Shown in pieces: positions 11,268 to 61,131 of a stretch of 64,000 bases of DNA (the first letter of the stretch is position 1; every line of letters starts with the position of its first letter). A model generated the notes under the pieces. It was not told the origin of the DNA. It saw nothing but the letters and a program-made list of their open reading frames with translations, and did not search any database. Location of the stretch: positions 17,055 to 81,054 of the forward strand of contig JBGTAN010000002.1 in NCBI GenBank assembly GCA_041749855.1, read 5' to 3'. This DNA is from Bdellovibrionota bacterium. GTDB lineage: Bacteria; Bdellovibrionota; FAC87; UBA2466. The position numbers and the translations under genes were made by a program.

Positions 11268-12080
11268 CTACCGAGCGTTGAAGACGGCCAGAACTTCCTT
11301 AGCTTTGCCACGGCGATCGCCGCGACAACTGATGGATCGACGTACTTCAAACCGATGCCTTTTGGCCAATCCGTATTCTCGGCGGGTGAAGGGTGTGTCG
11401 TGATTCGAAATCAGAACGGGTATGCCCCGGTCCGCGGTTTGCTCGGCCGCTCGCGCGAGTCGGATCTGTTCTTCAGGTCCAAATCCTCCCGCATCGTAGC
11501 TTGTAAAGTTCGCTGTCGCGGACAGAGGCACGTAAGGCGGATCACAATAGATCACGTCACCGGCACGTGAGTCGGCCATCACCATTTCAAAATCTGCATT
11601 GCGAATATCCGCGCGTTGAGACTTCTGATGGAAGGCCCGCATTTCAACTTCAGGAAAGTAAACCTTCGAGTATTTCCCAAAGGGAGCATTGAAACCGCCG
11701 CTCGCATTGTATCTACACAGACCATTGAAGCAGTGTCGATTTAAGTACAAAAAGAGCGCGGACTTCTCATGGTCCTTGGCCACTTCGTTGAACCGCGCAC
11801 GTCTTTCATAAAAGACTTCCTTGGAGTTCGCTGGATCTTCGAAGAAGGAGCGGCAGTACTCCATAAAGGAAGCGCCTTCTTTCTGTAGATGGCGGTACAG
11901 ATCAATGAGGTCGGCATTGGAGTCGGATAGAACGTAGTGCGAATAGTCGGTATTCAAAAATAGCGCGCCCGACCCCGCAAAGGGTTCTACCAAACGCTCG
12001 GCGGGCGGGAGCACGGCTTTAATACGGTCGACAATGAGATGCTTGTTGCCAGCCCATTTTAGGAAGGGACGCACGGACAT
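11268..12080 (-). CDS. dam: DNA adenine methylase, Dam (D12) family
   Basis: FLKWAGNK, EPFAGSG, FNGLCRYN..G.FNAPFG, YCDPPY and ISNH motifs. Confidence 0.93.
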   Translation of the reverse strand: MSVRPFLKWAGNKHLIVDRIKAVLPPAERLVEPFAGSGALFLNTDYSHYVLSDSNADLIDLYRHLQKEGASFMEYCRSFFEDPANSKEVFYERRARFNEVAKDHEKSALFLYLNRHCFNGLCRYNASGGFNAPFGKYSKVYFPEVEMRAFHQKSQRADIRNADFEMVMADSRAGDVIYCDPPYVPLSATANFTSYDAGGFGPEEQIRLARAAEQTADRGIPVLISNHDTPFTRREYGLAKRHRFEVRRSISCRGDRRGKAKEVLAVFNAR

Positions 12081-12145
12081 CGAACTAAACTACCTGGATT
12101 CAAAAATTTTGCAGTTAATGTTTAGATGTTTTATTGTCCTCAGCG

Positions 12146-12466
12146 ATGAAAGACAGGAATGAAGTGGAAGAGCGGCGTTTGCGGGCCAAAATCGTGGGTG
12201 AATTCCTCAAATTGATGCGTCAGAAGGCGGGTCTAACTCAGCACGAGTTAGCATCGACCCTTTCGTACTCAACAGCACAATTCATCAGTAACTGGGAGCG
12301 GGGCGTGTCATTGCCTCCTTTGGATGTCTTGCCAAAGCTCGCTCACCTTTGTCGCATCGCACCGAGAAAGTTGGTCGATGTTCTATACAGGTACCAAGAA
12401 GAAGTTTTGAAGCTTCACAAGAAGCAGCTCATGGCACTTCTCACTCGGCGCTCGCGCACTGCCTGA
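12146..12466 (+). CDS. XRE-family HTH regulator
   Basis: R.KAGLTQ.ELA....STAQFISNWERG..LPP pattern. Confidence 0.85.
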   Translation: MKDRNEVEERRLRAKIVGEFLKLMRQKAGLTQHELASTLSYSTAQFISNWERGVSLPPLDVLPKLAHLCRIAPRKLVDVLYRYQEEVLKLHKKQLMALLTRRSRTA

Positions 12467-24718: not shown

Positions 24719-25735
24719 ATGAATCCGCAAGCCAATTGGCGATTTGAAAAGCAGTCCGCACACCTTTACCGGGTCATTGCAAAAAAAGAAAAGCGCCCTG
24801 AGGTACGCCAGCTCTTCACTCAGCTGGCGGGTGAAGCGGAGAAGCAAGCCGCTCTATGGGAAGGAAAGTTCACGCCGGGACTTTCCCCCACACATTTCAC
24901 ACCGGACTGGAAGACTTGGTTCACTACTCACTTGGTGAATATCCTCGGCCCGCGCCACCTCAGCGGATTGCTCTCTGCTATGAAAGTGCGCGGCATGGCT
25001 GTGTATCGAAATCCCATGGCGTTTCACTCAAAGCCGCATCACATCTCACAAGTTGGACAACGCCACCATCAGCTGGGTGCCAGCAATTGGCTTCGTGCCG
25101 GAGTCTTTGGCATCAATGACGGCCTTGTCTCCAATGCAAGCCTCATCGTCGGGGTCGCGGGGGCGGCACAAACGGGCGAATCCGTTTTACTTGCGGGAAC
25201 CGCGGGACTCTTAGCCGGTGCCCTATCGATGGCTTGTGGAGAGTACGTTTCGGTGAAGTCGCAAAGGGAGTTCCTTGAGAAGCAGATGGAAATCGAGAAA
25301 GAGGAACTCGAGAACTATCCCGAAGAGGAAGCACTTGAACTGGCTCTGATTTATGAGGCCAAGGGCCTGTTGCGGGCAGACGCGGAGAGGACGGCAAAGG
25401 CTCTCATCGCCAATCCCGAGAAGGCTTTGGATACGTTGGCGAGAGAGGAGCTGGGGATCAATCCGTCGGAGTTGGGTTCGCCCTACTCTGCCGCTGCTTC
25501 CTCCTGTATCTCCTTTACCCTGGGCGCGTCGATTCCTTTGGTTCCCTTGCTCTGGATCGCGTGGCCCCGCGCGTTTCATTTCTCCATTGGCTTCGCGCTG
25601 GTGAGCCTCTTTGTCGTGGGAGCTGCTATCGGAGTCTTCACGGGAAAATCCGCCCTTTACGGGGGAATGAGAATGTTGGTGCTGGGAAGCATCGCCGGAG
25701 GACTGACTTTCTTGATCGGCACTCTCTTGGCCTAG
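24719..25735 (+). CDS. VIT1/CCC1 transporter with N-terminal rubrerythrin-like segment
   Basis: LRAGVFGINDGLVSN, SMACGEYVSV.SQ and REELG motifs. Confidence 0.9.
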   Translation: MNPQANWRFEKQSAHLYRVIAKKEKRPEVRQLFTQLAGEAEKQAALWEGKFTPGLSPTHFTPDWKTWFTTHLVNILGPRHLSGLLSAMKVRGMAVYRNPMAFHSKPHHISQVGQRHHQLGASNWLRAGVFGINDGLVSNASLIVGVAGAAQTGESVLLAGTAGLLAGALSMACGEYVSVKSQREFLEKQMEIEKEELENYPEEEALELALIYEAKGLLRADAERTAKALIANPEKALDTLAREELGINPSELGSPYSAAASSCISFTLGASIPLVPLLWIAWPRAFHFSIGFALVSLFVVGAAIGVFTGKSALYGGMRMLVLGSIAGGLTFLIGTLLA

Positions 25736-25764
25736 AAGAGGCGTCCCGCACCGTGACCTCAGTC

Positions 25765-25808
25765 CGCACTCGATTGACGACCCGAGTGCGCCTCTCTATA
25801 GTTTTCCC
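25765..25808 (+). promoter_or_regulatory. Sigma70 promoter (leaderless) with 8-bp inverted repeat over -35
   Basis: TTGACG-N17-TATAGT, 6 nt before ATG 25809. CGCACTCG-N10-CGAGTGCG straddles the -35. Confidence 0.6.
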
Positions 25809-26693
25809 ATGCCTTCCTTCTTTGAACGCATTGCTCAGTCAGTGCTGGCCCGCCTTCTCAAAGAAAGTATCAAAGAGGTTTTCAAAAAAAAGCGGCCGAA
25901 GGAGATCAATCCTTCCCCAAAACCGCTTTCAGACGCGAACACGTCTAAAGCACAGCCCAACGAACCTAGAAAGAGTCATCCTTGGCGCCTATGCCCCTCG
26001 GGAGAAAGTTGGGTAAGAACTCACCCACTGACAATACCCCCAAGTGAAAAGGGACCAGGATGGGAAACGATTCGAAGAGGACATTGTCGCCGCAACAATA
26101 GCGGGCGAAATATCTTCACCGGCGATGAACTGAGAGAGATTGCCACCCTTCACTTTAAGGATTTGCTCGACAGCCCTAGTGCGATGCCTATCGGAGATTC
26201 GCTGGGATTTCCAAGAGGAAATCAATACGACCTCAGTATCGCTGGATGGACAAAGTTTTGGAATGAAGTTTTACAACCAAGGGAATTGCTCTCGCCCGAC
26301 TTTGTAAAGGCGCTAATCGCAACGGAATCTAGTTTCAATACTCCGATCGATGTTCAAAGTAGTGCAGGACCCGCGAGGGGTCTTATCCAAATTACGGAGC
26401 AAACTCGCGAGATTCTTCAAAATCCGAAGGGTGAGCTTAAAGATCACCTCATTGAAATGTCGATCGAAGAAAGTCGCGATCCCCAAATCAATATAGCCGC
26501 AGGAACTCGCTGGCTTCATCACAAGAAGGATCTGGCCAAGCACAGGCTCAAAAGGGAGGCCACATGGGAAGAAGCGGTAGCGGAATACAAGGGGATACTT
26601 TCTCAACTAGGAAGGAACAAAAAGGCCGACGAAATCATGGAAAAGCTGGAGCAATACCACAGACAACTCAGAGAAAAGCGAGTGCCCAAATAG
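25809..26693 (+). CDS. Lytic transglycosylase (SLT-like) domain protein with N-terminal Cys/His motif
   Basis: ALIATESSF (catalytic Glu), ARGLIQI, DPQINIAAGTRWL and AVAEYKG motifs. N-terminal HPWRLCP..H..GHC. Confidence 0.82.
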   Translation: MPSFFERIAQSVLARLLKESIKEVFKKKRPKEINPSPKPLSDANTSKAQPNEPRKSHPWRLCPSGESWVRTHPLTIPPSEKGPGWETIRRGHCRRNNSGRNIFTGDELREIATLHFKDLLDSPSAMPIGDSLGFPRGNQYDLSIAGWTKFWNEVLQPRELLSPDFVKALIATESSFNTPIDVQSSAGPARGLIQITEQTREILQNPKGELKDHLIEMSIEESRDPQINIAAGTRWLHHKKDLAKHRLKREATWEEAVAEYKGILSQLGRNKKADEIMEKLEQYHRQLREKRVPK

Positions 26694-27214
26694 TCGCCGT
26701 GACCGTTTGGCTCACAATCGGTTTTCTTCTTCAAACGACATACTCCTTGAGAACGGAAGCTAAGCGTGAGAAGGACCGGCCTCAATTCTTACTCACCCCT
26801 CATTATGGAATCCTTTCGCCAGAAGAACTTCAGAAAGACGCACAAAACAATGGAAATTCCTTTTGGCAGTGTTTCCCTACAAAGTCTGTTTCAGTAGGCT
26901 ACGAAAAGTGGAAAGATTCGCACCCCATGGGCTCTTCCAGTCAACCCGTTGAAATGTGCGTTTTTGGAATAAAAGCCAAGCACGACGGAGTTTGGAGCGA
27001 GTTTGTTGGCCGCCGAGCAAATGAACTCGAGGTGTGCACCAAGTTGGTCACTAATTGGAACCGGCTCACAACAGGAGAACAATTTGTTTGCATCAACGGC
27101 GAGGGGATGGACTTCAAAAAACAGGCCCACGAGAAGGGGCTGCATTCGTGGACATGGCTCAAGCTGAAAACGAAGAAGGGGTGTTACGCCTACTTTCCTG
27201 ACGATTGCCCCTGA
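26564..27214 (+). CDS. Hypothetical membrane-anchored Cys-containing partner of the SLT gene
   Basis: One hydrophobic helix then a domain with 6 Cys. Start uncertain (26564 with overlap, or GTG 26699). Confidence 0.65.
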   Translation: MGRSGSGIQGDTFSTRKEQKGRRNHGKAGAIPQTTQRKASAQIVAVTVWLTIGFLLQTTYSLRTEAKREKDRPQFLLTPHYGILSPEELQKDAQNNGNSFWQCFPTKSVSVGYEKWKDSHPMGSSSQPVEMCVFGIKAKHDGVWSEFVGRRANELEVCTKLVTNWNRLTTGEQFVCINGEGMDFKKQAHEKGLHSWTWLKLKTKKGCYAYFPDDCP

Positions 27215-27248
27215 TCCAAGAGCCCCCAGACTGGAGTTTGGCTCGAAC

Positions 27249-27547
27249 CTATTTGTTTCTTTTCGGAACCAACTGAGACTGAGACAAGCGCCAAAGGTCG
27301 TCGATATCTTTCATCCTTGTATTGCCACCCTTAAACCGACGAAGGGCGGCTACTTTGTCGACGATGATGTTTTCTATGGTCGCTGCTTGAGGTTACCGCC
27401 CTTAAAAATAAAATCGGAAGACGCCCGATTCAATGCTTCGACATAGTTTAGCATTGTGTAGCGAAGGAAAGCCTGGGGCCCCTTAAGTCCGTTTTCCTTT
27501 GCCCACAGTCTAGCTTTCTTCAGAAAGGAGGAATTGGTTTCAGACAT
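27249..27547 (-). pseudogene. AbiEii/AbiGii nucleotidyltransferase toxin remnant (internal deletion and frameshift)
   Basis: N-terminal FIFKGGNL then a stop. The other frame reads ATIENIIVDK...NTRMKDIDDLW, the family C-terminal motif. Confidence 0.8.
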
Positions 27548-28136
27548 CAGCCAGCTCCTGCTGAACATGTGGCATCACTAGAGTCCCAAGCAGTCCGTCA
27601 TATTTAAGTATCAAAGCCATATTGGGATCATGTTGCCTGAGGTACCGCTTGAGGGCTTTGTAGAAAATGGGCCCACCCTTGTCGAATCGAAAGGCTTCCG
27701 CGAGAGATCGCTCGGGATCATAGATTGTGATTATTTCACCATGAAATTTCATTGCGGTAATACCAACAAGTCGCTTCGCTGGTACGCGGTGAACGCGAAG
27801 AAGCGCATTACGAATCGATGAATCTCTTGGGATATCGACATCGATTCGATCAACGCTTTCGTCTGAAAGCCCATGAATCACAAGCGCCGTAATATTGGAT
27901 AGAATCGCTTTGGGGTAAAAGCGCGGAATGGCGATAACGGAAGCGACAAAGGGATCTATTCTGGACGACGCATAAAGGCCTGCGCCCAGAGATACGATCT
28001 TTCCATCTTCAACTAGACGCTTGAGAGCCATCCTAGAGGATACCGAAGATTTCAATTGTTGCGCGCTGAGTACCTTCTCTTTCTGGAGTCGCGCAAGCAC
28101 GTTCGATAGGCTCTGACTTTTTACATTTTTCCGCAT
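27540..28136 (-). CDS. AbiEi-family type IV TA antitoxin
   Basis: LKRLV..G.I..LG.GLY, S..TAL.IHGLSD and IYDPERSL motifs. Overlaps the abiEii start. Confidence 0.85.
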   Translation of the reverse strand: MRKNVKSQSLSNVLARLQKEKVLSAQQLKSSVSSRMALKRLVEDGKIVSLGAGLYASSRIDPFVASVIAIPRFYPKAILSNITALVIHGLSDESVDRIDVDIPRDSSIRNALLRVHRVPAKRLVGITAMKFHGEIITIYDPERSLAEAFRFDKGGPIFYKALKRYLRQHDPNMALILKYDGLLGTLVMPHVQQELADV

Positions 28137-28142
28137 GTTACA

Positions 28143-28173
28143 ATATTACCACATATAAGCATTTATGTGGTAA
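28143..28173 (-). promoter_or_regulatory. AbiE operator inverted repeat with extended -10
   Basis: TTACCACATA-N8-TATGTGGTAA. TGG-TAATAT lies 6 nt before the ATG. Confidence 0.7.
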
Positions 28174-28194
28174 CTAAGTATCACACGTGCCTGC

Positions 28195-28899
28195 TCACAT
28201 CCTAGACTTCTTCTTCAGCCAAGCTCGATAGGCAGCGTTCACGTCCGGAGTTTCACACAAAATGGAAAGGTGTGTCTCCAACTTGCGACCGACCGACAGA
28301 TGTAAAAGATCATGCAAGCTGCACTTGGCTGCAATCATTTCAGTGACGGCAGTCGAGGTTTGGTAGTGAAACTTCAGGCCCAACGGATCTTGTAGGGGAT
28401 GGGTCATTGACCGTATGTCGCGCGTGGGTTGCCGGGCGAGCCACTTATAATCGACCGGACCCAATTTGCTCAGGTAGTTCGCAAGCCCTTCTTCCAGCCA
28501 CTTAGGAATCGCCTCTTTATACTTTTGAAAAAAAATGGCGTGCACGAGTTCGTGGGAAAGAATCGGTCCGAAGTTTTTTGGCGTCACATCAGGACCCAAG
28601 TGAAGCGTTCCTTCGGGGGGATTTGATGACCGGCGGAAAAAGGCTTTCACAGTAGGACCCGCCCCGTGAAGCGCCTGAAAGCGTTTTGCGTCAGCGTGGT
28701 AGAAGGCCTGGATGCGACGAATATCCCACTGCAAGTAGTCTTGAACAGGCCTAGAGGCCTTTTCGAGGAGGCTTTCGGTGATCCAAGCAGGCGCTTCAGC
28801 AAAGCGGATCGAATTGGTTATCACCTCAGCCGCTACCGCCGGGCGTAACCAGAGCATCGTCGTAACCAAAATCTGAAGCACTAAGGGTTGGCGCATCAC
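28195..28899 (-). CDS. Secreted gluzincin-like metallopeptidase domain protein
   Basis: Signal peptide, HELVH and PKWLEEGLANY motifs. Confidence 0.75.
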   Translation of the reverse strand: MMRQPLVLQILVTTMLWLRPAVAAEVITNSIRFAEAPAWITESLLEKASRPVQDYLQWDIRRIQAFYHADAKRFQALHGAGPTVKAFFRRSSNPPEGTLHLGPDVTPKNFGPILSHELVHAIFFQKYKEAIPKWLEEGLANYLSKLGPVDYKWLARQPTRDIRSMTHPLQDPLGLKFHYQTSTAVTEMIAAKCSLHDLLHLSVGRKLETHLSILCETPDVNAAYRAWLKKKSRM

Positions 28900-60270: not shown

Positions 60271-60360
60271 GCGCCGCACGCCGGGCAAGGCTCTCCACCT
60301 GGGTAATCCGCAAGCCCCGCTAGAATGCTCACTTGCCATCCCTAGCCAGTATGGTTGCTA

Positions 60361-60395
60361 TTGCTATATGGCATTTAATACCATATACTGGGTTT
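60361..60395 (+). promoter_or_regulatory. Leaderless sigma70 promoter/operator of HigBA-like module
   Basis: TTGCTA-N17-TATACT, 6 nt before the ATG. TATATGG-N9-CCATATA palindrome. Confidence 0.65.
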
Positions 60396-60677
60396 ATGTG
60401 GCGGGTGCATCTAGCGAAAAGGGCAGCGAAACAATTCGAGAAGCTTCCCGCGGACGCTCAGTTCGCTTTAAGAGCGCTGGCAGCCGATATTCAGGCTAAC
60501 GGCCCCTATAGAGCGAACTGGAAGCACTATTCGCCACTTCGGAATCAGGCTGGCAAATACCATTGTCATTTAATGGGCGGCCGGCCGACGTACGTTGTTT
60601 GTTGGGAACTGGTCGATAAAAAGAATAAACTCGTGGAGGTCTATTATGCCGGCACACATGAAAATGCCCCGTACTAA
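60396..60677 (+). CDS. RelE/HigB-like toxin
   Basis: W.V....A.KQ..KLP, YHCHL..GRPTYV.CW and EVYYAGTHE.APY motifs. Confidence 0.82.
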   Translation: MWRVHLAKRAAKQFEKLPADAQFALRALAADIQANGPYRANWKHYSPLRNQAGKYHCHLMGGRPTYVVCWELVDKKNKLVEVYYAGTHENAPY

Positions 60678-61044
60678 GGGAAAGATGGCGACAGTGACTG
60701 TAAAGTCTTCGCCGGAAGAAGCGACTTTTGTATTTGAGATCCCCAAGACAGCCCTTTCGAGTTTTATGGGAACGTTAAAGAAGATTGGAACTCCCATAAG
60801 TGAACGGGATAGCATTCCTGCGGATGAGATCTTTAAGGGCTTAGACAAGAAATATGGACGGGCGGGTAGTATTCTGCGGGGTGCTAGGGCCAAGGAAGGG
60901 CTTACCCAGGAGGAACTAGCGAAGAAGGCTGGTATTGAGCAGGCCGACCTTTCCAAAATGGAAAATGGCAAACTTTCGATTGGTCGCGAACGTGCCAAAC
61001 GCCTGGGTGAAGTCCTGGGTATCGATTATCGATTGTTTTTATAG
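60646..61044 (+). CDS. XRE HTH antitoxin (HigA-like)
   Basis: GGAGG RBS and LRGAR.KEGLTQ.ELA...GI.Q..LS.MENG motif. Toxin-first order. Confidence 0.85.
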   Translation: MPAHMKMPRTKGKMATVTVKSSPEEATFVFEIPKTALSSFMGTLKKIGTPISERDSIPADEIFKGLDKKYGRAGSILRGARAKEGLTQEELAKKAGIEQADLSKMENGKLSIGRERAKRLGEVLGIDYRLFL

Positions 61045-61054
61045 AGGGGAAAAG

Positions 61055-61131
61055 TGGAGCGGGACACGGGGTTCGAACCCGCGACCTCAACCTTGGCAAG
61101 GTTGCGCTCTAGCCAACTGAGCTAGTCCCGC
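61055..61131 (-). tRNA. tRNA-Gly(GCC)
   Basis: GCGGGAC..AGCTCAGTTGG..AGAGC, anticodon arm CAACC-TTGCCAA-GGTTG, GGTTCGAACCC and encoded CCA. Confidence 0.97.

What the first reader, a model, noticed from the sequence alone, without database searches (positions are those of the whole stretch)
25765..27214. SLT-like transglycosylase plus membrane partner: candidate new toxin-immunity or defence module
Seen: a two-gene unit in an apparently more AT-rich patch, converging on an AbiE locus. Gene 1 has lytic-transglycosylase motifs (ES, GLIQ, NI..G..WL, AEY) but no signal peptide. It has a basic amphipathic N-terminus and an unexplained HPWRLCP..H..GHC putative metal-binding motif. Gene 2 has one TM and a 6-Cys domain suited to the periplasm. 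The promoter is near-consensus and leaderless, with an inverted repeat over -35, the same layout as the three TA modules in this window. Inference: a peptidoglycan-attacking toxin with a periplasmic immunity or sensor protein (suicide defence or predation effector). Caveat: leaderless promoters also occur on ordinary genes here.
Basis: partly seen in the sequence, partly recalled or inferred. Interest (0 to 1): 0.78.

Follow-up and report, generated by a model that had tools for sequence, protein, structure and literature searches.

The report
Wall-cutting enzyme with periplasmic partner cassette
A small mobile two-gene cassette found only in Bdellovibrio-type bacteria encodes a cell-wall-cutting enzyme made without an export signal and an exported cysteine-rich partner, probably a toxin and its antidote, and it usually travels attached to classical toxin-antitoxin genes.

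Summary
Gene 1 (25809-26693) is an SLT-type lytic transglycosylase with an invariant catalytic Glu173. It has no signal peptide and a conserved, unclassified His/Cys domain. Gene 2 (26699-27214) is an exported six-cysteine protein of no known family. The pair and a decayed AbiE locus form a 2.4-kb low-GC insertion that two same-genus genomes lack.

The two genes are co-conserved: 27 of 29 best-per-genome loci and 33 of 38 named loci keep gene 2 directly downstream. The enzyme family occurs in 114 of 301 Bdellovibrionota genomes sampled, with up to 7 copies, some pseudogenes, and a tree that disagrees with taxonomy.

Unexpectedly, the cassette sits beside toxin-antitoxin (TA) genes, often as the 3' extension of a TA operon. 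TA families occur in 25 of 150 nearby ORFs against 1 of 134 distant ones. Some members are fused to HepT, MNT or Doc domains.

Best reading (about 0.45): a peptidoglycan-degrading toxin with a periplasmic immunity protein, carried as a selfish cassette. The export route is unknown, and the window's own pair has a swapped partner. A TA-coupled lysis role is the main rival. I class it as a new variant of a known kind.

The parts
25736..28194 (.). Inserted low-GC islet holding gene 1, gene 2, the AbiEii remnant and AbiEi
   Evidence: Same-genus genomes G120 (L073) and G128 (L074) have the VIT1 homologue followed directly by the homologue of the 28195-28899 gene. GC is 0.484 against 0.535 for the window.
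25765..25790 (+). 8-bp inverted repeat CGCACTCG-N10-CGAGTGCG bracketing the -35 hexamer
   Evidence: Read and found by the script. It is not conserved in the closest homologue, G160, so an operator role is unproven.
25774..25802 (+). Sigma-70-like promoter TTGACG-17-TATAGT, ending 6 nt before the ATG (leaderless geometry)
   Evidence: 10 of 12 matches. It is the only such site in the window at this stringency.
25809..26693 (+). Gene 1: signal-less SLT-type lytic transglycosylase, 294 aa
25809..25958 (+). Residues 1-50: basic amphipathic helix plus Pro/Lys-rich linker; this is the variable 'adaptor' position of the family
25977..26258 (+). Residues 57-150: conserved His/Cys domain (H57 W59 R60 C62 H72 H92 C93), a probable Zn site, with no known family
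26289..26636 (+). Residues 161-276: SLT catalytic domain; the catalytic Glu173 codon is at 26325-26327
26699..27214 (+). Gene 2: exported six-Cys protein, 171 aa from GTG 26699. The alternative ATG at 26564 would give 216 aa overlapping gene 1.
27215..27568 (-). AbiEii toxin remnant: a 64-aa N-terminal ORF (27374-27568) plus a frame-shifted later piece
27540..28136 (-). AbiEi antitoxin/regulator, intact
   Evidence: PADLOC PDLC02225, E 6.4e-32.
28146..28173 (.). Palindrome TTACCACATA-N8-TATGTGGTAA upstream of AbiEi, a likely AbiEi operator
   Evidence: inverted repeat I14. The operator role is inferred.

Best explanation
The locus is a horizontally mobile two-gene cassette restricted to Bdellovibrionota.

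- **Gene 1** makes, in the cytoplasm, a lytic transglycosylase of the SLT type. Its catalytic Glu173 is intact. The SLT domain is preceded by a new His/Cys (probably zinc) domain of about 95 residues and by a variable N-terminal 'adaptor'.
- **Gene 2** is translationally coupled to gene 1 (5-nt gap). It makes a small Sec-exported, disulfide-rich protein that is a lipoprotein in some relatives.

The most likely function is a peptidoglycan-degrading toxin plus a periplasmic immunity protein. The cell that carries the cassette is protected where its wall lies. Cells that lack the partner, whether rivals or descendants that lose the cassette, are not. The cassette therefore behaves like the TA modules it travels with, and it is often transcribed as the 3' extension of their operons.

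**Shown here:** gene structure, family membership of the catalytic domain, conservation of catalytic and His/Cys residues, absence of a signal in gene 1 and its presence in gene 2 homologues, co-conservation of the pair, insertion, patchy multi-copy distribution, and linkage to TA genes.

**Inferred:** enzyme activity, zinc binding, how the enzyme leaves the cytoplasm, inhibition by gene 2, and the target cell.
For: **Enzyme**
- Pfam SLT E 4.2e-11.
- E173 is invariant in 78 sequences.
- No signal peptide in the window's protein or in 171 full-length relatives.

**Pairing**
- A gene 2 homologue lies directly downstream on the same strand, at -12 to +152 nt, in 27 of 29 best-per-genome loci.
- 15 of 19 gene 2 loci have the enzyme upstream.
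- 33 of 38 named loci show the pair.
- In 20 neighbourhoods of 20 kb, only these two genes are shared.

**Partner**
- 45 of 50 partners have a signal-like N-terminus.
- The partner evolves faster than the enzyme: median pairwise identity 19% against 42%, and lower in 99% of 1830 comparisons. This is what is expected of an inhibitor.
- Three full-length orphan partner genes occur among the 19 gene 2 loci.
- Where gene 2 is missing, other signal-bearing genes follow the enzyme.

**Mobility**
- The cassette is an insertion relative to G120 and G128.
- The family is in 114 of 301 genomes, with up to 7 copies and some copies carrying stops.
- Its closest relatives are in other families (58-60% identity), while same-genus genomes reach only 42-50%.
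- The enzyme tree is incongruent with taxonomy.

**Neighbourhood**
- TA/Abi Pfam families occur in 25 of 150 ORFs within 2.6 kb, against 1 of 134 ORFs at 4.5 kb or more.

**Precedent**
- Pesticin is a muramidase bacteriocin whose immunity protein Pim resides in the periplasm (PMC3390615, passages read).
Against: - **No export route.** No TssC was found and no VirB4. The contractile-injection tube gene is in only 9 of the 114 genomes that carry the enzyme.
- **TA-domain fusions.** About a third of the full-length relatives examined (62 of 171, a biased sample) carry a domain-sized N-terminal extension. Where it is identifiable it is an MNT or HepT domain, and one more relative (extension over 135 aa) carries Doc. 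These domains act in the cytoplasm.
- **Partner swap.** The window's enzyme sits inside the clade whose partners are 'type B' but carries a 'type A' partner. It shares 57-59% identity with those enzymes, but its partner shares only 14-20% with theirs. The enzyme is closer to that clade in every segment. So the partner was swapped whole, which a tightly cognate toxin-immunity pair should not tolerate.
- **Weak signal in this copy.** The window's gene 2 signal is weak, with no basic n-region and Arg/Lys just after it. G160's copy lacks a canonical start next to the hydrophobic segment.
- **Fused ORFs.** Rare enzyme-partner fused ORFs would hold the enzyme on the cytoplasmic side.
- **No family link.** Gene 2 shows no similarity to MliC or Ivy.
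Confidence: 0.45

Rival explanations
1. TA-coupled suicide lysis, the reader's 'suicide defence'. The enzyme is held in the cytoplasm, co-transcribed with or fused to a TA component. It reaches the wall only when the membrane is breached or the TA system fires, which hastens death of an infected or stressed cell. Gene 2 mops up leakage in healthy cells.
For: - A TA-family gene lies among the two co-directional genes just upstream in 13 of 30 enzyme copies in L051-L070 and in 12 of 34 loci of the named set L078-L113.
- The TA families involved are many and unrelated: MNT/HepT, BrnTA, PIN, ParE/Phd, HigBA, Doc, MazF, AbiE, Zeta, Fic.
- Covalent fusions to HepT, MNT and Doc exist.
- The islets resemble defence islands (TA enrichment).
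- The AbiE association recurs in both orientations (window; L051, L052, L089).
Against: - No holin or pore gene was seen in the conserved unit: in 20 neighbourhoods only the enzyme and partner genes recur.
- PADLOC has no hit for either gene.
- In the window the cassette has its own promoter and no TA gene upstream.
- Co-expression of the partner with the enzyme would blunt lysis.
- The fusions may be neutral by-products of a leaderless gene abutting the last TA gene.
Confidence: 0.2
2. Predation effector with self-protection. The enzyme is delivered into prey to open the prey wall, and gene 2 shields the predator's own wall. This would parallel the Bd3459/Bd3460 endopeptidase and ankyrin pair of Bdellovibrio bacteriovorus.
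For: - The family is restricted to Bdellovibrionota lineages.
- Self-protection against a predator's own wall enzymes has a precedent (PMC4686830, abstract seen in the listing).
- Enzyme diversification could track prey inhibitors.
Against: - The distribution is patchy (114 of 301 genomes) and pseudogenes occur. That is unlike a core predation tool.
- The enzyme has no signal peptide.
- TA linkage and fusions have no place in this picture.
- The family also occurs in records labelled Oligoflexia and Silvanigrella. Whether those are predators was not checked here.
Confidence: 0.1
3. Cytoplasmic muropeptide-binding or muropeptide-cleaving module that serves as a sensor or regulatory extension of TA antitoxins. 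It would couple wall damage to TA activation. Gene 2 would be a periplasmic accessory with a separate role.
For: - The enzyme is signal-less throughout the family.
- It has a Cys/His site suited to the reducing cytoplasm.
- Stable fusion to MNT-like domains occurs in a large clade that has a HEPN gene upstream.
Against: - An invariant catalytic Glu and a full SLT motif set argue for an enzyme that acts on glycan strands, and those are periplasmic.
- Tight coupling to an exported partner is left unexplained.
- Many copies have no TA neighbour, the window's copy among them.
Confidence: 0.08
4. Remnant of a phage lysis cassette, or a wall-opening function of a conjugative or other transfer element.
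For: - Weak PHROG hits to phage 'transglycosylase' families (best E 9.6e-5).
- Transposase and integrase fragments lie in some islets, and tRNA genes are adjacent.
Against: - No relative in 50,697 phage records, 72,556 plasmids or IMG/VR contigs.
- No phage or transfer genes were seen in the 20 neighbourhoods.
- No VirB4 in the own genome.
- No holin or spanin was seen.
Confidence: 0.05

Closest known systems
Pesticin (Pst) and its immunity protein Pim of Yersinia; likewise colicin M and Cmi
   Same: [quoted passage not shown] That pesticin itself has no signal peptide is recalled, not taken from those passages. The three-part layout is comparable in size: N-terminal tail, middle domain, C-terminal lytic domain.
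   Different: The catalytic domain here is SLT-type, not T4-lysozyme-like. No TonB box or receptor-binding domain is recognisable. The cassette is chromosomal, multi-copy and linked to TA operons, and some members are fused to TA domains. No release or uptake mechanism is known.
Type VI secretion glycoside-hydrolase effectors with periplasmic immunity proteins (Tge/Tgi, VgrG3/TsiV3 type; names recalled)
   Same: A signal-less wall hydrolase sits next to a signal-bearing immunity gene. The distribution is variable and multi-copy, and orphan immunity genes occur.
   Different: No TssC was found in the own genome, which is 99.4% complete. No T6SS genes were seen near any copy.
Bd3459/Bd3460 self-protection pair of Bdellovibrio bacteriovorus
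   Same: Same phylum. A wall hydrolase is paired with a protein that protects the producer (PMC4686830, abstract seen in the listing).
   Different: That enzyme is a DD-endopeptidase, and that it is Sec-secreted is recalled. Its protector is an ankyrin-repeat protein. It is a core predation function, not a patchy mobile cassette.
Periplasmic lysozyme and lytic-transglycosylase inhibitors Ivy and MliC/PliC
   Same: Small exported, partly lipoprotein, disulfide-containing proteins that block lysozyme-fold enzymes in the periplasm.
   Different: No profile similarity to E. coli MliC (hhalign probability 2%) or Ivy (0.1%). Those inhibitors are not paired with an enzyme gene.
Classical type II, IV and VII TA modules (HepT/MntA, Phd/Doc, AbiE and others)
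   Same: A two-gene, translationally coupled, autonomous and mobile unit. The cassette shares islets, operons and even polypeptides with them.
   Different: The putative antidote is exported, and the putative toxin's target lies outside the cytoplasm. Neither protein belongs to a TA family.

Membership tests
SLT / family-1-type lytic transglycosylase (Pfam PF01464; CAZy GH23, recalled) | Match to the family profile above its curated cut-off | tested here: met
   42.9 bits against a cut-off of 21.3, E 4.2e-11, residues 161-276.
SLT / family-1-type lytic transglycosylase (Pfam PF01464; CAZy GH23, recalled) | Catalytic Glu in an E-S motif, followed by GLxQ-type and AYNxG-type motifs (motif names recalled) | tested here: met
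   E173 is invariant and S174 nearly so. G191 and Q194 (GLIQ) are invariant. Y260 in AEYKG is nearly invariant. All from 78 sequences.
SLT / family-1-type lytic transglycosylase (Pfam PF01464; CAZy GH23, recalled) | Cleavage of peptidoglycan with formation of 1,6-anhydro-MurNAc | not testable with these tools
   Needs an enzyme assay.
AbiE type IV TA / abortive infection system (the neighbour) | AbiEi antitoxin and regulator | tested here: met
   PADLOC AbiEi, E 6.4e-32.
AbiE type IV TA / abortive infection system (the neighbour) | Intact AbiEii nucleotidyltransferase toxin | tested here: not met
   Only a 64-aa N-terminal ORF that aligns to AbiEii residues 9-53, plus a frame-shifted piece. 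About 350 nt remain where intact genes have about 880 nt.
Pesticin/Pim-type bacteriocin-immunity pair | Signal-less wall hydrolase with an adjacent exported immunity gene | tested here: met
   Export was judged from sequence only.
Pesticin/Pim-type bacteriocin-immunity pair | Pesticin-type (T4-lysozyme-like) catalytic domain, TonB box and receptor-binding domain | tested here: not met
   Pfam finds SLT only. No TonB-box-like motif was seen by eye in the N-termini. The middle domain has no known family.
Pesticin/Pim-type bacteriocin-immunity pair | Kills sensitive cells from outside; the immunity protein neutralises it | not testable with these tools
   Needs experiments.
T6SS effector-immunity pair | A type VI secretion system in the same genome | tested here: not met
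   PF05943 (TssC) was not found in G000, which is 99.4% complete. The control rang in E. coli.
Contractile injection system (eCIS) cargo | Co-occurrence with a CIS | tested here: not met
   G000 has a CIS-like cluster. But the gp19-type tube gene is in only 16 of 301 genomes. Only 9 of the 114 enzyme-bearing genomes have it, and G160 does not.
MliC/PliC and Ivy lysozyme inhibitors (for gene 2) | Profile similarity to family members | tested here: not met
   hhalign probability 2% (MliC) and 0.1% (Ivy). No Pfam hit in 49 members.
Phage endolysin-holin cassette or VirB1-type transfer transglycosylase | Phage or transfer genes nearby, or relatives in phages and plasmids | tested here: not met
   No match in phages, plasmids or IMG/VR. 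No VirB4. Neighbourhoods hold TA genes and housekeeping genes.
Known anti-phage defence systems (PADLOC) | Match to a defence-system protein model | tested here: not met
   No PADLOC hit for gene 1 or gene 2 at E up to 0.1.

The most novel reading that the evidence does not exclude
The cassette is the output arm of a previously unrecognised composite system. A classical TA operon of almost any family controls a cytoplasmically stored wall-lytic enzyme whose antidote sits in the periplasm. In about a third of the relatives examined the TA component is covalently joined to the enzyme. Firing of the TA switch would then be converted into wall lysis or into release of a wall-degrading bacteriocin. 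This would be a 'TA-gated lysin' that links intracellular addiction modules to an extracytoplasmic target.
Probability: 0.2. Interest if true: 0.85.

Novelty: new variant of a known kind. Interest (0 to 1): 0.6.

Why it matters
If the pair is a wall-degrading toxin with a periplasmic antidote, it adds a lineage-specific competition or addiction system to a phylum of bacterial predators that is being studied as 'living antibiotics'. It also brings two protein families with no known relatives: a His/Cys domain joined to a lytic transglycosylase, and a candidate new type of transglycosylase inhibitor.

The systematic attachment to, and fusion with, many unrelated TA families was not found in print in the searches made here. 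It makes a concrete question testable: can TA modules drive an effector that acts outside the cytoplasm?

How a folded, signal-less, probably zinc-bound enzyme reaches the wall is an open mechanistic problem.

Tried and rejected

**Sequence searches that found nothing**
- Sequence search of solved structures gave nothing usable for the enzyme (best hit 9udh, E 0.13), the His/Cys domain or gene 2.
- Pfam scans of 43 His/Cys-domain members and 49 gene 2 members gave nothing.
- NCBIfam gave only a sub-threshold hit for the enzyme.
- Rfam found nothing in 25000-28600.
- No flanking direct repeats or target-site duplication were found around the islet.

**Sequencing runs**
- No RNA holder is listed for the locus.
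- Contigs of runs X1-X4 (one study, possibly the source sample) bridge the three islet junctions with identical sequence and show no alternative junction. This is not independent support.

**Ideas rejected**
- T6SS delivery.
- Conjugation.
- CIS cargo as a general route.
- Phage or plasmid origin.
- Gene 2 as an MliC or Ivy relative.
- Small 74-aa ORFs downstream of the partner as conserved genes: they are unrelated to each other.

**Other**
- The long gene 2 ORF from ATG 26564 is probably a by-product. That ATG is formed by the invariant Trp253 codon of gene 1 and lies in a stop-poor A/G-rich stretch. A membrane-anchored long form is not excluded.
- Supplementary files of the papers were not seen.
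Full report
**1. What is at the coordinates**

The + strand carries two abutting ORFs.
- Gene 1 runs 25809-26693 and encodes 294 aa.
- Gene 2 ends at 27214. Its first ATG is 26564, inside gene 1. A GTG at 26699, 5 nt after gene 1's TAG, gives a 171-aa protein that starts with a hydrophobic segment.

Gene 1 matches Pfam SLT (PF01464) at E 4.2e-11 over residues 161-276. Gene 2 matches nothing in Pfam, NCBIfam, PHROGs or PADLOC.

Upstream of gene 1 there is a TTGACG-17-TATAGT promoter at 25774-25802, ending 6 nt before the ATG. A script over both strands of the whole window found it to be the only site with at least 10 of 12 matches, a start codon 4-9 nt after the -10 hexamer, and an ORF of at least 50 aa. 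An 8-bp inverted repeat (25765-25772 / 25783-25790) brackets the -35 hexamer. The closest homologue has no equivalent repeat.

At 9 of 12 matches, one TA-like gene (start 60396) shares the geometry but has no repeat.

Downstream and convergent lies AbiEi (27540-28136, PADLOC E 6.4e-32). Its AbiEii toxin is reduced to a 64-aa N-terminal ORF plus a frame-shifted fragment. No Rfam family matches the region.

**2. The islet is an insertion**

Positions 25736-28194 have GC 0.484 against 0.535 for the window. That is in the lowest 0.8% of same-size windows.

In two genomes of the same genus (G120, G128) the VIT1 homologue is followed directly by the homologue of the 28195-28899 gene. The gap is about 140 nt in G120, where the window has 2.46 kb. 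In G160, which has the closest copy of the pair (71% and 61% identity), the pair lies on a different contig from VIT1. No flanking direct repeats were found.

**3. Gene 1 family**

A word-indexed search found 446 relatives at E up to 1e-3. Every name given by a source points to Bdellovibrionota. So do all 38 named loci from the species-representative genomes: Bdellovibrionales, Bacteriovoracaceae, Halobacteriovoraceae, Pseudobdellovibrionaceae, Oligoflexia and Silvanigrella, plus three with broader or older labels (Deltaproteobacteria, delta proteobacterium, Pseudomonadota).

In a 78-sequence alignment:
- Catalytic-motif residues E173, G191, Q194, N228 and W235 are invariant, and S174 and Y260 are nearly so.
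- In the N-terminal domain H57, W59, R60, C62, W68 and C93 are invariant, and H72 and H92 are nearly so.

A profile of this His/Cys domain, run against 1.84 billion representative proteins, found only 265 hits. Of the 76 listed hits of 200 aa or more, 74 also carry the SLT domain. The other two end just after the His/Cys domain. The domain was therefore seen only in front of this enzyme. It has no Pfam family and no solved relative by sequence.

No member has a signal peptide. Among 171 full-length relatives (a biased sample, being the top hits of two searches) the only uncharged hydrophobic 15-mer before the motif lies inside the Doc domain of P0030.

The stretch before the His/Cys motif varies across those 171:

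| Length before the motif | Members |
|---|---|
| 15 aa or fewer | 25 |
| 16-40 aa | 20 |
| 41-75 aa (as in the window; basic, here amphipathic) | 63 |
| 76-135 aa (domain-sized) | 62 |
| more than 135 aa | 1 |

**4. The domain-sized extensions are TA domains**

Pfam identifies three kinds:
- HepT-like HEPN RNase in P0145, P0236 and P0252.
- MNT nucleotidyltransferase in P0203, P0275, P0180 and P0194.
- Fic/Doc in P0030.

The abundant 338-aa clade aligns colinearly with an MNT-fused member, but the GS and DxD positions are replaced. I infer a degenerate MNT domain. In five neighbourhoods an HI0074-type HEPN gene lies directly upstream of such forms, or, in L062, beside an enzyme fragment.

**5. 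Gene 2 family and pairing**

A single-sequence search found 14 relatives and a profile search found 51. All are 'hypothetical' and come from the same phylum where a name is given.

A profile HMM built from the neighbourhood copies finds a homologue in these positions:
- Directly downstream of the enzyme, on the same strand, at -12 to +152 nt, in 27 of 29 best-per-genome loci.
- 15 of 19 best gene 2 loci have the enzyme directly upstream. Three are full-length orphans and one is a fragment.
- 33 of 38 named loci show the pair.

By a simple hydrophobic-run rule, 45 of 50 homologues have a signal-like N-terminus and 10 have a lipobox-like Cys. No signal-peptide predictor was available.

The window's protein has six Cys. 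Its own signal is weak, and G160's copy has no canonical start next to the hydrophobic segment. A longer membrane-anchored form starting inside gene 1 therefore cannot be excluded. Either way the Cys-rich domain would face the periplasm.

Where gene 2 is missing, other signal-bearing genes follow the enzyme (clusters c5 and c13). hhalign shows no relation to E. coli MliC or Ivy.

**6. Distribution and mobility**

- In 301 sampled genomes of the phylum, the enzyme was found in 114, with up to 7 matches per genome. Several copies carry internal stops.
- Gene 2 was found in 57 genomes with the single-sequence query.
- The window's enzyme is 58-60% identical to copies in four other families, but only 42-50% identical to those of three same-genus genomes.
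- A quick maximum-likelihood tree of 61 non-redundant pairs scatters the rows of the window's own family.
- Copies sit near assembly breaks. In 16 of 38 named loci the contig ends less than 3.2 kb upstream of the match. By my own count, about 40 of the 150 listed matches start within 3 kb of a contig end.
- tRNA or tmRNA genes lie close to many islets. In L060 a 2.5-kb unit (HEPN gene, MNT-like enzyme, c5 gene) is flanked by two near-identical tRNA-Glu copies.
- No relatives occur in 50,697 phage records, 72,556 plasmids or IMG/VR.

**7. Neighbourhood**

In 20 neighbourhoods of 20 kb, only the enzyme and its partner are shared.

TA/Abi enrichment was measured with ORFs from my own simple ORF caller. 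The families counted were AbiEi, AbiEii, DUF6088, MNT, HepT, HI0074-HEPN, Fic/Doc, HigB, HipA, Phd, MazF and Gp49.
- Of the 155 ORFs of at least 90 aa within 2.6 kb of a cassette, 150 were scanned. 25 carry one of these families.
- Of 134 ORFs at least 4.5 kb away in the same loci, 1 does.

Related genomes are not independent, so this shows enrichment but is not a formal test.

A TA-family gene lies among the two co-directional genes just upstream in:
- 13 of 30 enzyme copies in L051-L070;
- 12 of 34 loci in the named set L078-L113.

The TA families there are MNT+HepT, BrnT+CopG, PIN, ParE+Phd, HigB-like+HTH, AbiEii, Zeta, Doc, MazF and Fic. The convergent AbiE arrangement of the window recurs in L051, and the co-directional one in L052 (twice) and L089.

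**8. Co-evolution and a partner swap**

- The partner diverges much faster than the enzyme. Median pairwise identity is 19% against 42%, and it is lower in 99% of 1830 comparisons. Spearman correlation is 0.57, which co-inheritance alone would produce.
- Partner 'type B' lacks the N-terminal WQCF part. It is confined to one enzyme clade of 26 rows: 23 type B, 2 type A and 1 other (SH-aLRT 98).
- The two type A rows in that clade are the window and G160, nested with support 100.
- The window's enzyme is closer to the type-B-partnered enzymes in every 50-residue segment.
- The whole partner gene was therefore exchanged at the gene boundary.

**9. Export routes tested**

The own genome is 99.4% complete.
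- It lacks TssC and VirB4.
- It has a contractile-injection-like cluster on contig 16: a sheath, two gp19-type tubes, a CIS tube, gp25, a spike and two AAA ATPases.
- The gp19-type tube is in only 16 of 301 genomes, and 9 of those carry the enzyme. So 105 of the 114 enzyme-bearing genomes, G160 among them, lack it.

No general export route emerges.

**10. Interpretation**

The pair has the anatomy of a wall-degrading toxin with a periplasmic antidote. The closest known analogue is pesticin with Pim. Pesticin is a muramidase, and Pim, encoded in the same operon, resides in the periplasm (PMC3390615, passages read). Bdellovibrio's Bd3459/Bd3460 pair is a precedent for self-protection within the phylum (PMC4686830, abstract in the listing).

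I put this reading at about 0.45. Four things weigh against it:
- the missing export route;
- the partner swap;
- the cytoplasmic TA-domain fusions;
- the weak signal of this copy's partner.

The main rival, at about 0.2, is that the enzyme is the lytic output of the TA modules it is attached to. The fusions could also be neutral. A leaderless gene that abuts the last gene of a TA operon needs only the loss of a stop codon to fuse, and in each case the fused domain is the one encoded last.

Searches of the paper library found no description of this family or of a link between TA modules and a transglycosylase. The polyvalent-protein paper was read in passages. It concerns large injected proteins of phages and conjugative elements, not this cassette.

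**11. Limits**

- Genomes other than the named loci are anonymous samples.
- ORFs in relatives were called by a simple script.
- Signal peptides were judged by inspection and a hydrophobicity rule.
- No expression data exist for the locus.

Noticed in passing
G000 contig 16, loci L116 and L117 (C16:133000-166342); outside the window: The window's genome has a contractile-injection-system-like cluster: a sheath, two gp19-type tube proteins, a CIS tube, gp25, a spike OB-fold protein and two AAA ATPases. No capsid or terminase was seen among the 26 ORFs scanned. A sigma-54 activator lies beside it.
   Followed up: partly
L060:8854-8931 and L060:11469-11546: Two near-identical tRNA-Glu copies, sharing about 25 nt of upstream sequence, flank a 2.5-kb unit made of a HEPN gene, an MNT-like-fused enzyme and a signal-bearing 282-aa gene. 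It looks like an integrated or duplicated mini-island. L069 has the same tRNA-Lys/tRNA-Glu site occupied by a HEPN-enzyme-partner unit.
   Followed up: partly
window 60333-61041 (+) and 61055-61131 (-): A RelE/HigB-like 93-aa ORF (start 60396, with a leaderless-geometry promoter at 60361) and an HTH_3 protein lie directly next to the window's only tRNA gene (tRNA-Gly). This is another small TA islet at a tRNA.
   Followed up: partly
P0228 (414 aa), P0275 (479 aa), L105 (405-aa ORF): These are ORFs in which the enzyme and the partner are fused, with the partner's signal segment internal. They could be real fusions, frameshift errors or pseudogenes. If real, the enzyme part would stay on the cytoplasmic side.
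   Followed up: no
L054:10472-11362, L057:8688-9482, L060:10533-11381 (cluster c5); L055:10632-11198, L060:12570-13316 (cluster c13): Two further families of signal-bearing proteins follow enzyme copies that lack a gene 2 homologue. Both contain a D-x-[DN]-x-D-x-x-P-E-I motif reminiscent of calcium-binding FG-GAP/VCBS repeats (a resemblance recalled, not tested). They may be alternative partners.
   Followed up: no
window 26564 (ATG) and the equivalent position in L003, L061 and L062: The invariant Trp253 codon of the enzyme creates an in-frame ATG or GTG for the partner's reading frame. That frame stays open for 45-65 codons through the A/G-rich 3' end of gene 1 in four relatives. G160's partner has no canonical start nearer its hydrophobic segment.
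   Followed up: partly
L057:5249-6586, L088:2461-3603, L092:3193-4329, L098:2845-3996, L070:2437-3795: AAA_14/DUF4143 ATPase genes recur beside or near several cassettes.
   Followed up: no
window 11271-12080 (-) and 12134-12463 (+): A D12-class N6-adenine DNA methyltransferase gene is divergent from a small HTH_3 protein gene. No restriction gene was looked for.
   Followed up: no
window 28146-28173: A perfect 10-bp palindrome with an 8-nt spacer lies just upstream of the orphan AbiEi gene. It is likely the gene's autoregulatory operator.
   Followed up: no
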